Shown here: in pieces, positions 8,689 to 29,329 of the stretch | Numbering within the stretch: position 1 is the stretch's first letter | Layout of the letters: each line of letters opens with the position of its first letter | Assembly: GCF_009914755.1 (NCBI RefSeq) | Contig: NC_060925.1 | DNA from: the human T2T-CHM13v2.0 reference genome, Homo sapiens | Strand: one strand, 5' to 3' | Length of the DNA stretch: 64,000 bases | Position numbers and translations under genes: made by a program | Notes under the pieces: model-generated | Told to the model about the DNA's origin: nothing | Databases searched by the model: none | The model's input: the letters and a program-made list of their open reading frames with translations, nothing else

Positions 8689-8823
<135 letters not shown>

Positions 8824-10315: not shown

Positions 10316-11584
10316 ATAGGTTGCACATCTGAAATCAAAAAATCCCAAATCCTTGCTTTTGGAGTGCCAACATTTCAATCAAAGCTCCAAATGCTTCTTC
10401 ATTGGAGCATTTCAGATTTTGGATTTGAGATGCTGAACAGTAAGTACAATAATACATACTTAACAATGGAGATACATTCTGAGAAATGTATCATTCAGCA
10501 ATTTCATCACTGTGTGAGCATACAGTGTACTTTCACAAACCTAGATGGTATAGACTACTACACACTTAGGTTATGTGGAATAGCCTATTGTGCTCCTATG
10601 CTACAAACCTATGTATCATGTTACTGTACTGAATGCTGTAGGAAACTGTAACAATGGTAAATATTTATGTATCTAAATATAGAAAAGCTACAGTAAAAAT
10701 AAGATATAAAAGGTAAAAAATGGTACACACCCATACAGGGGACTTATGATGAATGGAGTTTGCAGGACTGAAAATTGTTTTGGGTGAGTTAGTGAGTGGT
10801 AAATGAACGTGAAGGCCTAAGACGTTAACAGTATACCTAGGCTACACTAAATTTACTGTAAAAAAGTGTTCTCCCTTCAGAAATAAATCAACCTTACCTT
10901 ACAGTGATTTTCTGACTTTATAAACTTAAAAAATTTTTAAAGCTTTCTGACTCTTGTAATAACACTTAGCTTAAAACACATACATTGTACAGCTGGACAA
11001 AAGTATTTCCTTTTTACATTTCCTTATAAGTTAAAAAATTAAAATAGGAAAAAGCTTTTTAAACTTTTTTGTTAAAAACTAAGAAACAGAAAGTTAGCCT
11101 AGGTCTACACAGGGTCAGGATAATCAATATCACTGTTTTCACCTCCACGTTTTGTCTCACTGAAAAGTCTTCAAGGGTAATGATATGCATAGAGATGTCA
11201 TCTTCTCTGATAACAGTACCTTTTTCTGGAATGTCTCCTGAAGGGCCTGCCTGAGGCTGTTGTATAGTAACTTAAAAAAACAAGTGTAAGAAGTACAGTC
11301 TATAATAATGGTAAAAAGTAAATAATAAACAAGTATATAGTTATTTATTATCTTTATCAAGTATTGTGTAGTATACGTAATCGTATGTGCTAGACTTTTT
11401 GAACATTTTTAATTTTTTTTGAGTATTATAGTTGGTATATACACTTATGTGGAATATGAGATGTTTTGATACAGGCATGCAATGCATAATAATCACATCA
11501 TGGAGAATGGCGCACCTACCTCAAGCATTTATCCTTTGTGTTACAATCTAATTATACATTTTCAGTTATTTAAAAATGTACAAT

Positions 11585-17824
<6,240 letters not shown>

Positions 17825-18457
17825 TAGAACCATGGATTAACAGGCATTCAGAAAATGTTAAAAAATAATTATCTTCTGTGAATGGAAATATATTTAAAAA
17901 CTAAATCTGTATATAGCATTTCAGGACTTCTGCAAATTATGAAATCTTTCATCTAGTACCAGGGTTATTACATCCATTTAGGATACTCACAGATAGTTCA
18001 TAATGTACAATAGTCCAGAGATGATTTTACCTTTCTGGTGTAAGTTAATTAAAATTTGGAAGGAACTCATTTCTCTTCCCTCATACACATTTTTGGTGTA
18101 TTCAAAAAACATAAGGTAATCCTAGGTAGGATAAGGTAAAGCCTAGGTAATCATTTGGAAATATTTTGTGTTCATTTCAGTGCCTGTTAAGCAATAATGG
18201 AATGGAACTTCATTGAGTGGTACTGATTTATCAGATTACATGGCACACTCAATTCCACTCATGTTAATGATAAAGATATGCTCCAGTACTTGCAAAGCAG
18301 AGCACAACTGATGGGTTTCTATGACTCTCTATTTTGTTTTATGTCTTTCCATTTTAAAACACATCAGTGACTTAACTGAGCATTGTGGACAGTTTTCAAC
18401 CCATGATGGTATGAGAAAGTAAATGTAGCATCTAATAGCAAATAAAAAATTAAAAAT
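17825..18457 (+). other. L1 3'-transduced non-L1 DNA with second A-rich tail
   Basis: Lies between the L1 poly(A) and the downstream TSD copy (aaaaatgtacaat at 11572-11584 and 18458-18470). Confidence 0.88.
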
Positions 18458-20392
18458 AAAAATGTACAATTAAATTATTATTGACTATAGTCACCTCGTT
18501 ATGCTACCAAATACTAGGTCTTACTCATTCTGTGTATTTTTTGTAGCCATTAACCACCTCTACTTCCCCCAACAGCCCAAGTACCCTTCTCAGACTCTGG
18601 TAACCATCCTTCTACTCTCTATGTCCATGAGTTCAATTGTTTTCATTTTTAGATCCCACAAATAAGTGAGAATCCGTGACGTTTGTCTTTCTATGCCAGG
18701 CTTATTTCACTTTACATAATGATCTCCAGTTCCATCCATGTTGTTGCAAATGACAGAATCTCATTCTTTTTTTTAATGGCTGAATAGTACTCCATTTTGT
18801 ATATGTACCACATTTCCCTTATTCATTCATCTGTTGATGGATACAAAGTTTGCTTCCAAATCTTGGCTACTGCGAACAGTGCCGCAAAAAACATGGGAAT
18901 GCAGATAGCTCTTTCATATAGAAGTTGCCTTTCTGTTGGGTATATACCCAGCAGTGGGACTGCTGGGTAATATGGTAGCTCTAGTTTTAATTTTTTAGGA
19001 ATCTCCAAACCAATCTTCATAGTGGTTGTACCAATTTACATTCCCACCACCACTGTACAAGGGTTCCCTTTTCTCCACATCCTCACCAGCATTTGTTTAC
19101 TGCCTAACTTTTGGATAAGTCATTTTAACTGGGGTGAGATAATATCTCATTGTAGCCACGATTTGCATTTCTGATGATCAATGATGTTGAGCACTTTTAC
19201 ATATACCAGTTTGCCATTTATATGTCTTCTTTTGAGAAATGTCTATTCAAACCTTTTACCCATTTTAAAATGGATTATTAGATTTTTTTCCCTACAAAAT
19301 TGTCTGAGCTCCTTATATATTCTGGTTATTAATCACTTGTCAGATGAGTAGTTTGCAAATATTTTCTCCCATTCTGTGGGTTGTCTCTGCACTTTGTTGA
19401 CTGTTGCCTTCGCTGTGCAGAAGCTTTTTAACTTGATATGATCCCATTTGTCCATTTTTGCTTTGGCTGCTTGTGGGATATTACTAAAGAAATTTTTGCT
19501 TAGACCAAAGTACTGGAGATTTCCCCCAGTGTTTTCTTGTAGTAGTTTTGTAGTTTGAAGTCTTAAAGTCTTTAATCCATTGTGACTTGATTTTCATATA
19601 TGGTGACAGACAGAGGTCTAGTTCCATTCTTCTGCAAACGGATATCCAGTTTTCCCACTGGCATTTATTGAAGACTGTCTTTTCTCCAGTGTATGTTCTT
19701 GGCAAGTTTGTCAAAAATGAGTTCACTGTAGGTGTGCTATACTTTTATTTAACTGGGAGCATAGAATTGTTTACACTAGTATCACTGTAAACATGTGAGT
19801 AATGTCTGCACTATGAAGTTATAATGGCTATGACAACATTAGAAGTTTAAAATTTTTTACCTCCATTTTAATCTTATGGGACCACTGTCATATATGTGGT
19901 CTCTCACTGATTGAAATGTCATTATACACTGCATGACTCTACAATGTAAATATTTTTAAAAAAATGAAATCCAAAACACATCTGGTTCTCAGCATTTTGG
20001 AAAAAGGGTTCTCAACCTGTATATGGTAGAATTTTTACATGCAATGTTGCTTTTTTTTTTGTTATGTCATTTGCTCTTTTATGCCTCCATTATTACCTTA
20101 CTTTGTGTTATACAGATATTTTCTAGTGTATCATTTTAGTTTGAGTATATTTTAAAAGTTATTTTTCAGAGTGTTTTTTCTGGGGATTATAATTGGCATG
20201 TTAAATTAAAATAACCTAGTTCAGATGATCACTAATTTAATTTCAATACTATGTCAAAATTCTGCTGCAATATAGCTCCATCTCCTTTCCTCCCCAACCT
20301 TTGAAACATTATGGCCATACATATTACATCTTTCTATGTTACATGTTCATCAACAATTTTAGAATTACTATTTTAGTCAATTGTCTTTCAAA

Positions 20393-20933: not shown

Positions 20934-21661
20934 TAAAATCAGAATAAAAATTCTTTACAAAAAAATTCATCTAAACTATCTTTTTATATACCGATATGAT
21001 TATCTTAACCAGTTCTCTTTACTACTTTGTGGACTTACATTACAGTCTAGTATCCCTTTATTTCGGCCTGCAGAACTCTCTCTGGTATTTCTTATGGGGT
21101 AGGTCTCCTGACAAAGAACTCACTCGGTTTATCTGGGAATATCTTAATTCCCCCTTCATTTTTGATGAATAGTTTTGCTGAATATAAAATTCTTTATTGA
21201 CAATCTTTTCCTTTCAATACTTTAAACATATCCTACTGCCTGCTGGCAGTAATGATTTCTGACGAGAAGTCATCAGAAATATTAACATTAATCTTAATGA
21301 GGATCCCTGGTACTTGCTGAGCAACTTTTTGATTGCCATTTCCAAGATTCTCTTCCCGCCTTTCAAGAGTTTCAATATGATGAGTTTAGGTGTACATCTT
21401 ATCTACTTGGGGTTTATTGAGCTTTTTGGATGTGTGGATTGATGTTTTCCATCCAATTTGCAAAAATACTGGCCATCATTTCTACAAATATTTTCTACCT
21501 CTTTCTCTCTCCTCATCTTTTGGAAATCTACAAATGTTGGCATGCTTGATGGTGTCTCCAGGTTTGTGAAGTTCATTTTTTCTTTTATTCTTTTTTCTTT
21601 GTATTCTTTACAATGGATAATCACAACTGACCTATCTCCAAGTTTACTGATTCTTTCTTTT

Positions 21662-27687
<6,026 letters not shown>

Positions 27688-29329
27688 CTGATTCTTTCTT
27701 TTGACAGGTCAAATTTTCTCATGAACCTCTCTAATGAATTTTTCATGTTTAGTTATGATACTTTCAACAACAGAATTATTTGTTTTTATTTCTTTTTGTT
27801 AATATTCTCTATTTGATAAAGTATATTTGTCATATTTTCCTTTAACTCTTTGTGGTTTAATTACCTTTTTTGAATATATTTGTAATAACTAATTACAAAT
27901 ATATAAGCCCTATAGCTAGGATAATTTCTACTAAGAATTTTTCTTGTTTGTGTATACCTTTTTTTACTGAAAAGCAGACACTTTGGAAAATACTATGTGG
28001 CAACTGTGGACTCGGTTCTTCCTCCTGGTTTTCTTCCAGCTCAGCTTTTTGCTATTGGTGGTGTTGCTGTTTGTGGTTTAATGACTTCCCTGGGACTAAA
28101 TCTGTTCAGCCTGTAATTCCTACTGCATGGAGCCACTGACATCTTTAATGAGTTTTTTATTTATTTTTGTTTTTATTTTTAAGTCCAGCTGAGTAGGAGT
28201 TGTTCCTGGGTCAGCAACACTTAGCAGTAACAAGATTTCCTTAATGCTTTGCACGATTTGTGTGTATGTTGTGGAATGCTTTCAGAGCTTAAATCTGCCT
28301 TAGCCTTCACTTCCTGCTTACACAGAGCTCATGGTCAACCAGAGGTGAAGACTGGGGCTCTCTGCAGTTTTTCCTGGATATGCACACTACACCTGGCACA
28401 TGTGCATAGCATTCTACAGCTAGGTACACGTCAGAGCTTCTTGACCCCCACCTTTGGCTGTTTTGTTGTCCAGATCTTTGTTTTCAATTTTTAGCTGTGC
28501 CTTGATTGCCCAACTGGTACTAGAGTCTGACACAGCTGTGATACTGCATCTGATTATTTTCAACAATACTGTGGGTATCGACAGGTATTTTCCCATGGAG
28601 ATTTTGAGTTGGGTCAAATAGTAACAATATTCTAATATTTCACAATTCAAAAACATTTTAATACATAATTTCTCAAGTTATTTCATAAGATGAGAATAAT
28701 TTGGTATTATAAAAATAACATAGTACCATATAATAATATACTAACGTATTCTCATGTTAATACAAAAGGGGTGTAATATGTGAAAGGCATATAAGTAAAG
28801 GTTAAATTATGTCCTTGTGTACTGTACAAAAGTTTTACAGTAGCTAAAAATTGCGTACTGCACGAAGGTTTTTACAGTGAGTTATCAAATGACAGATGTT
28901 TCTATAGATGTGACAACTTCAAAAGAAACTGTATTGGAGTACTCATAACCAGTTTGGTATGTTGAGTGGTGACTTATTTTCAGCAAAATTATACCAGTTA
29001 ATCCGATTATTGTTATTATTATGCCATCATATTGTTATTTTGAATTTTGATTTTATATATTGCATTTATTAATAATTAGAATTTGTTCTGAGTTATAGTT
29101 ACTTAGGAGACAGGGGCATATGAAGATGGTCTACACCTTTACATTTTTATATATATTGTAATAACATTATGATGTTAAGTTATAAGTTTAGGTTACTTGG
29201 GGGGGGGGGTCCGCAATAATTTTCTTTCCTTTATAAAGGAGGGTATGTCTTTATATTTCTGAAGCATTGCCATAATTGAAAAAGTATGCTTAATAATGAG
29301 GAATTAGGGTACAGTCAATTACTGTTTTT

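What the first reader, a model, noticed from the sequence alone, without database searches (positions are those of the whole stretch)
17825..18470. ~630-bp L1 3' transduction imported into the COP1 intron
Seen: the target site tt|aaaaatgtacaat (11572-11584) is not repeated after the L1 poly(A) at about 17824. It reappears at 18458-18470, after ~615 bp of non-L1 DNA, an AGTAAA hexamer (18418-18423) and a second A-rich tail (18440-18457). The interrupted L1MA resumes exactly there (aatgtacaat-taaattattattgactatag). Known: read-through of the weak L1 poly(A) signal mobilises 3' flanking DNA. Inference: this segment tags the source L1 locus.
Basis: partly seen in the sequence, partly recalled or inferred. 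Interest (0 to 1): 0.7.

Follow-up and report, generated by a model that had tools for sequence, protein, structure and literature searches.

The report
Chromosome 7 DNA carried by LINE-1
A dead LINE-1 jumping gene in an intron of COP1 ends in a 620-base copy of chromosome 7 DNA that it most likely dragged along by read-through from a parent LINE-1 that is no longer at that chromosome 7 site in this genome; this is an ordinary, well-known kind of event, likely without effect on COP1.

Summary
Confirmed, and ordinary. The 13-bp target-site duplication (11572-11584, 18458-18470) occurs only twice in the window. Nine of 11 relatives of the interrupted old L1 imply exactly that 13-bp overlap. The passenger (17825/6-18444) has one other genomic copy, G000:C7:89,717,913-89,718,532 (16 substitutions in 619, no indels). 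That copy has no tail. No young L1 lies within 30 kb of the chromosome 7 copy, but the junction sits on an L1-endonuclease-type site (TTCT/AA), so it reads as the empty site of a parent that has been lost. The carrier is a full-length, broken L1 with the roughly 129-bp 5'UTR piece (L1PA3-like). Its 1.6% private changes agree with half the passenger divergence (1.3%). No siblings were found. Ape genomes could not be searched, so the fate of the parent is open. Verdict: a new member of a known kind, low interest.

The parts
11572..11584 (+). 5' copy of the 13-bp target-site duplication; the cut site reads TTTT/AA on the bottom strand
11585..17793 (+). Full-length L1 carrier (L1PA3-like), antisense to COP1; ORF1 and ORF2 broken into pieces
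12362..12489 (+). About 128-129 bp of 5'UTR absent from the second, younger-type full-length L1 in the window; by size and place the ZNF93-bound piece of L1PA3/4
   Evidence: PMC5860796 passages
17339..17414 (+). Separate, later insertion inside the carrier: 54 nt of a young L1 3' end plus about 22 A, replacing 21 bp of the host, with a 2-bp microhomology at the 5' join and no TSD
17794..17824 (+). First (internal) A-rich tail, inferred to be the parent L1's genomic poly(A), copied along
   Evidence: 84% A
17825..18444 (+). Transduced unique DNA, copy of G000:C7:89,717,913-89,718,532; base 17825 may belong to the tail or to the source
18418..18423 (+). AGTAAA; the chromosome 7 copy has AATAAA here, the first one downstream of the junction, ending 21 nt before the last shared base
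18445..18457 (+). Second A-rich tail, absent from chromosome 7 (added poly(A), decayed)
18458..18470 (+). 3' copy of the target-site duplication; the old minus-strand L1 resumes here

Best explanation
This is a full-length, now broken L1 followed by a 620-bp copy of chromosome 7 DNA and a second A-tail, all inside one 13-bp target-site duplication, most likely made by a single 3' transduction from a parent L1 inferred to have once stood at the chromosome 7 junction. Steps: (1, inferred) an L1PA3-type element inserted at the endonuclease-type site at C7:89,717,913/4. (2, inferred from the anatomy) Its transcript read through its own weak signal and A-tail and was cut 21 nt after the first downstream AATAAA, ahead of a GT-rich stretch. 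(3, shown by the TSD, the tail and the TTTT/AA site) This RNA was copied by target-primed reverse transcription into an old L1 in the COP1 intron. (4, inferred) The daughter was kept, while the parent allele, probably never fixed, was lost from the lineage of this genome, leaving a clean empty site. (5, inferred) Much later a short L1Hs-type cDNA replaced 21 bp inside the daughter. The insertion is antisense to COP1 and is likely neutral.
For: One other copy only, 16 substitutions in 619 with no indels; searches with both ends and 2.5 kb of source found no third copy. The chromosome 7 copy has no A-tail (17% A in the next 30 nt) and no flanking repeat longer than 5 bp, so it is the donor. The 3' end lies 21 nt after the first AATAAA; 2.8% of positions in the 30 kb lie 10-35 nt after one. 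The 5' end lies at TTT|AGAA (bottom strand TTCT/AA). 0.37% of positions fit a strict TT|purine rule and 1.4% are within one mismatch of TT|AAAA. TTCT/AA is listed as a cut site for disease insertions in PMC4859970 Table 1. Two A-tails and a single outer TSD match the textbook anatomy in the same review. Ages agree: the carrier has 94 of 5794 private non-CpG changes (1.62%) against half of 2.6% (95% CI 1.5-4.2%, so 0.7-2.1% per copy). Sources without a donor L1 are a described class (PMC4862182 section 14).
Against: The parent L1 was not seen: a BLAST of the carrier against C7:89,699,500-89,729,499 gave only poly(A)/poly(T) hits, so step 1 rests on a 6-base motif. The two motif rules were chosen after seeing the junction, so the chance figures are optimistic. 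The junction is ambiguous by one base. An insertion of a chromosome 7 RNA into the L1's A-tail could hide a pure-A duplication. The genome search scores only the best candidates, so short or diverged siblings could be missed.
Confidence: 0.9

Rival explanations
1. Two events: the L1 inserted first, and a 5'-truncated polyadenylated chromosome 7 RNA was later copied in trans into the L1's A-tail, so no L1 ever stood on chromosome 7.
For: A-tracts could hide a pure-A duplication. No parent L1 is on chromosome 7. The source has a well-formed AATAAA and a GT-rich downstream stretch, so it could end some other transcript.
Against: The truncation would have to fall by chance on an endonuclease-type site (0.4-1.4% of positions). 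The end of tail 1 has G interruptions that tail 2 lacks, so no inner TSD is visible. L1 and passenger ages agree.
Confidence: 0.04
2. One event by template switching: reverse transcription began on a chromosome 7 RNA and jumped to the 3' end of an unrelated full-length L1 RNA.
For: It explains the single TSD, the matching ages and the missing parent. The bases before the junction on chromosome 7 resemble a splice acceptor.
Against: It needs a switch exactly onto the L1's tail and exactly at an endonuclease-type site. The shared sequence includes the TAG that splicing would remove, so a spliced last exon does not fit. Known chimeras of this kind usually have the L1 at the 3' side (recalled).
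Confidence: 0.04
3. DNA-level duplication or break-repair capture of chromosome 7 DNA next to the L1.
For: A single paralogue on another chromosome.
Against: The copy ends at a poly(A) cleavage position with a non-templated A-tail and lies inside the L1's TSD. Homology stops sharply at both ends.
Confidence: 0.01
4. Variant of the best explanation: the parent L1 was once fixed and was later removed precisely by recombination between its TSDs, or it still segregates in living people.
For: A precise deletion leaves the same clean empty site.
Against: Precise deletions are rare: 0.003% of SINE loci in toothed whales, described as slightly higher than in primates (PMC10531181 abstract and passages); these figures are for SINEs, not L1. 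A 2.6% divergence is old for a living polymorphism (inference). A search of three supplement files of PMC12350158 for the locus coordinates gave no hit, but full variant files are not among them.
Confidence: 0.05

Closest known systems
L1-mediated 3' transduction (as described in PMC4859970, Fig. 2d legend and text; passages seen)
   Same: Read-through to a downstream AATAAA, two A-tails, outer TSD, L1 endonuclease site, unique passenger traceable to one locus.
   Different: No difference in kind. The parent is missing from this genome, so the parent's 3' TSD in the passenger cannot be delimited.
Transductions whose source has no donor L1 (class 1 of TIGER, PMC4862182 section 14 read in full)
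   Same: No donor L1 within 5 kb of the source; explained there as the donor segregating separately from the daughter.
   Different: Those are polymorphic ape events. This one is in the human reference and is old (2.6% divergence).
Reference transductions catalogued in T2T-CHM13 (bioRxiv 10.1101/2021.07.12.451456; passages)
   Same: Same genome and same class; 183 top-confidence L1 3' transductions and lower-confidence bins are reported.
   Different: Whether this locus is in their Table S13 could not be checked (preprint supplements are closed; the journal version is not held).
L1PA3/L1PA4 with the 129-bp ZNF93-bound 5'UTR piece (PMC5860796 passages)
   Same: The carrier has about 128 extra bases at the matching place relative to a younger-type L1 and is about 6.15 kb without the nested piece.
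   Different: L1PA3 versus L1PA4 rests on recalled 3'UTR diagnostics; no Dfam/RepeatMasker library was available.
Retrotransposon insertion-mediated deletion (RIMD; PMC6191304 passages)
   Same: The nested young L1 fragment has no TSD and removes 21 bp of target.
   Different: Unusually short (54 nt of L1); human specificity was not tested against an outgroup.

Membership tests
L1 3' transduction | One TSD encloses L1 plus extra 3' DNA | tested here: met
   (9 of 11 host relatives give a 13-bp overlap)
L1 3' transduction | Two A-rich tails, the outer one not templated by the source | tested here: met
L1 3' transduction | Passenger maps to another locus that is the donor | tested here: met
   C7 copy has no tail or TSD
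L1 3' transduction | Poly(A) signal 10-40 nt before the end of the passenger | tested here: met
   first AATAAA at +593, 21-nt spacing
L1 3' transduction | L1 endonuclease site at the target | tested here: met
   TTTT/AA at 11571/11572
L1 3' transduction | Same-orientation parent L1 directly upstream of the source | tested here: inconclusive
   Absent in this genome; the junction has an empty-site motif; other haplotypes and apes could not be searched
L1 3' transduction | L1 and passenger both absent from the orthologous target in outgroups | not testable with these tools
   No relative genomes are held for this window
L1PA3 subfamily (carrier) | 129-bp 5'UTR piece present (L1PA3/4, not L1PA2/L1Hs) | tested here: met
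   128-nt gap at 12362-12489 against the second L1; PMC5860796
L1PA3 subfamily (carrier) | Best match to the L1PA3 consensus rather than L1PA4 | not testable with these tools
   No repeat library. The 3'UTR states seen fit recalled L1PA3 diagnostics; nearest of 13 relatives 3.2% apart at non-CpG sites
L1Hs (nested fragment) | 3'-end states shared with Ta/pre-Ta elements | tested here: inconclusive
   Of 20 perfect-match loci fetched (20 of the 36 full-length 100% matches listed, one of which is the window's own), 11 carry ACA, 5 ACG and 4 GAG upstream, read from the sequences. None of the 16 older relatives shows either of the two states where the motif could be read. The fragment is too short to hold the trinucleotide; the Ta/pre-Ta labels are recalled

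The most novel reading that the evidence does not exclude
The parent L1 still stands at the orthologous chromosome 7 junction in one or more great apes (or rare human haplotypes) while this genome has the exact empty site. The COP1 daughter would then be an internal witness that humans descend from a population carrying a 6-kb active L1 since lost by deep lineage sorting or precise excision, giving a dated parent-daughter pair split between species.
Probability: 0.15. Interest if true: 0.4.

Novelty: new member of a known kind. Interest (0 to 1): 0.2.

Why it matters
Mostly as a clean record: it places an active L1PA3-type source at a spot where no trace of it is left except its cut site, and it gives a presence/absence marker for ape phylogeny. 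The nested young fragment is a candidate human-specific and possibly polymorphic insertion hidden in an older L1. Nothing here points to an effect on COP1. The element and its poly(A) signal are on the opposite strand, and the passenger has no ORF over 41 codons and no Rfam match at its source.

Tried and rejected
Parent L1 near the source: none in 30 kb. Siblings: four own-genome searches (whole passenger, 2.5 kb of source, and each junction) returned only the two known copies, apart from Alu-like hits to one upstream repeat; 0 of 16 close L1 relatives had the passenger in the fetched stretch, and several of those stretches did not reach the 3' flank. A tree of 14 L1s was star-like with no close sister, so no relative could be named as kin of the parent (3 partial copies dropped). 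Last-exon/splice-acceptor reading of the source: rejected because the TAG is retained. Coding or RNA-family content: none. Literature: no paper on this locus turned up in the searches. All 48 'chr7' places in the TIGER table were read by eye and none resembled the passenger (no alignment run). No COP1/RFWD2 entry in the supplements of PMC9396940 or PMC6191304 (one file). No coordinate hit in PMC12350158 supplements. The search for a paper stating the L1Hs 3' diagnostics found none. Szak 2003, Pickeral 2000, Jacobs 2014, Han 2005 and the journal version of the T2T repeat paper were not held, so nothing is cited from them; an older catalogue may list this event.

Full report
Observation. A full-length L1 starts at 11585, right after AAAAATGTACAAT. 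Its first A-rich tail ends at 17824 with no repeat of that word. About 620 bp of other DNA, a second A-rich tail and the word follow at 18458-18470. The 13-mer occurs twice in 64 kb, against about 1.4e-4 expected by chance in the 2 kb after the L1. To test that it is a true duplication, I fetched 11 relatives of the old element that the insertion interrupts (the best 11 non-self of 40 matches) and aligned the two flanks separately. Nine of 11 place the end of the left flank and the start of the right flank with exactly 13 bases of overlap. L016's left alignment ends early, and L025 has an Alu-like insert at the same point. The passenger aligned to none of them.

Source. A search of the whole genome with the passenger gave two matches of two candidates: itself and C7:89,717,914-89,718,528 at 97%. 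Alignment shows that homology runs from 17825/6 to 18444 with 16 substitutions in 619 bases and no indels. The chromosome 7 copy is the donor. It continues into non-A sequence (17% A in the next 30 nt, 62% G+T in the next 40) and has no flanking repeat over 5 bp. Where the window has AGTAAA, chromosome 7 has AATAAA. This is the first AATAAA on that strand after the junction (+593), and it ends 21 nt before the last shared base. Weaker variant hexamers earlier in the segment were evidently passed over. By a Pfam search the source lies about 183 kb from a minus-strand F420_oxidored exon at C7:89,534,405, which I take from memory to be STEAP4; no annotation of the source itself was available.

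The parent is missing. BLAST of the 6.2-kb carrier against 30 kb around the source gave only poly(A)/poly(T) hits. The junction reads CTTATTT|AGAACCA, i.e. TTCT/AA on the bottom strand, a cut site listed for several disease insertions in Table 1 of PMC4859970 (passages). In the 30 kb, 112 of 29,994 positions fit a strict TT|purine rule and 421 are within one mismatch of TT|AAAA; these rules were picked after seeing the site. The simplest reading is an empty site: the parent was never fixed and was lost. Donor-less sources are a described class (PMC4862182 section 14), and non-reference sources are common among living human transductions (PMC9311842 passages). Precise excision would look the same but is rare for SINEs (PMC10531181 abstract and passages). 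No third copy appeared in searches with 2.5 kb of source or with either junction.

Carrier and age. ORF1 and ORF2 are broken into pieces (80 and 113 aa; 359, 548, 115 and 53 aa). Compared with the second full-length L1 in the window it has 128 extra bases at 12362-12489, matching in size and place the 129-bp piece present in L1PA3/L1PA4 and lost in L1PA2/L1Hs (PMC5860796 passages). Its best 5' matches genome-wide are 93-94% identical. Sixteen of those were fetched. Among 14 near-complete sequences (3 partial ones dropped, nested piece excluded) the carrier has 94 private changes in 5794 non-CpG columns, 1.62%; the others range from 1.0 to 2.05%, and the tree is star-like. The passenger, which has no CpG, differs from its source by 2.6% (95% CI 1.5-4.2%), or about 1.3% per copy. 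The two clocks agree, as one event requires. On recalled calibrations (human-chimpanzee about 1.2%, human-orangutan about 3%), that points to roughly 10-15 million years, before the African ape splits; this is inference, not a test.

A second event inside the carrier. At 17339-~17414 a second copy of the L1 3' end with about 22 A sits where the 15 of 16 relatives that cover the site have an uninterrupted stretch; 21 host bases are gone, with a 2-base microhomology at the 5' join and no TSD. It differs from the carrier's own 3' end at 17358 and 17383. Its 64 bases match 36 listed loci perfectly over the full length, the window included (40 scored of 97 candidates). Of 20 fetched, 11 have ACA, 5 ACG and 4 GAG at the upstream trinucleotide (the script's pattern missed two, read by eye). 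From memory ACA and ACG mark Ta and pre-Ta L1Hs; my search for a paper stating this found none. So it is most likely a human-lineage insertion with a small target deletion, a known class (RIMD in PMC6191304 passages). Polymorphism was not testable.

Mechanism and rivals. Best: one 3' transduction from a lost parent (0.9). Shown: TSD, two tails, unique donor, signal spacing, absence of the parent here. Inferred: that the parent existed, read-through, loss by drift, and AATAAA as the ancestral state. Rivals that need no parent (later insertion of a chromosome 7 RNA into the A-tail, or template switching) each need the junction to land on an endonuclease-type site by chance. DNA-level duplication does not explain the added tail.

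Function. COP1 is on the minus strand, so the L1 and the imported signal face away from its transcripts. The passenger has no ATG-started frame over 41 codons, and the source has no Rfam match. The L1 antisense promoter would face COP1 exon 8690-8807, 2.8 kb away (inference), but COP1/RFWD2 does not occur in three supplement files of an L1 chimeric-transcript study. The one paper returned for RFWD2 plus LINE-1 plus antisense promoter mentions it only as a knock-down gene (PMC3643820 passage).

Known or new. The anatomy is the textbook one, and 183 top-confidence L1 3' transductions were catalogued in this assembly (preprint passages). I found no paper on this locus (searches; supplements). The catalogue tables of that preprint and several older papers could not be seen, so it may already be listed. 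PMC13192797 (passages) added nothing on this locus. Verdict: real, a new member of a known kind, interest 0.2.

Noticed in passing
window 17339-17414 (+): Very short L1Hs-type 3' fragment with poly(A) nested in the carrier L1, replacing 21 bp, no TSD; candidate human-specific or polymorphic insertion.
   Followed up: partly
window 21651-27689 (-): Second full-length L1, in COP1's sense orientation, lacking the 128-bp 5'UTR piece (younger type; L1PA2-like by recalled diagnostics), with a direct repeat of at least 13 bp at 21647 and 27688. Its 5'UTR overlaps the RefSeq enhancer 26886-27387.
   Followed up: partly
window 11585-12490 (-) and COP1 exon 8690-8807: The carrier's antisense promoter would point in COP1's direction, 2.8 kb upstream of a coding exon; no entry found in one chimeric-transcript study.
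   Followed up: partly
L025 (G000:C7:16636017-16639855): In this relative of the old host L1 an Alu-like element sits at about the same position where the COP1 copy took its L1, suggesting a reused endonuclease target within that old family.
   Followed up: no
window 17826-18444 versus C7:89,717,914-89,718,532: Ten of the 16 differences have G/C in the COP1 copy and A/T on chromosome 7, and three are the reverse; the carrier L1 shows no such bias (32 versus 34). Small numbers, not polarised.
   Followed up: no
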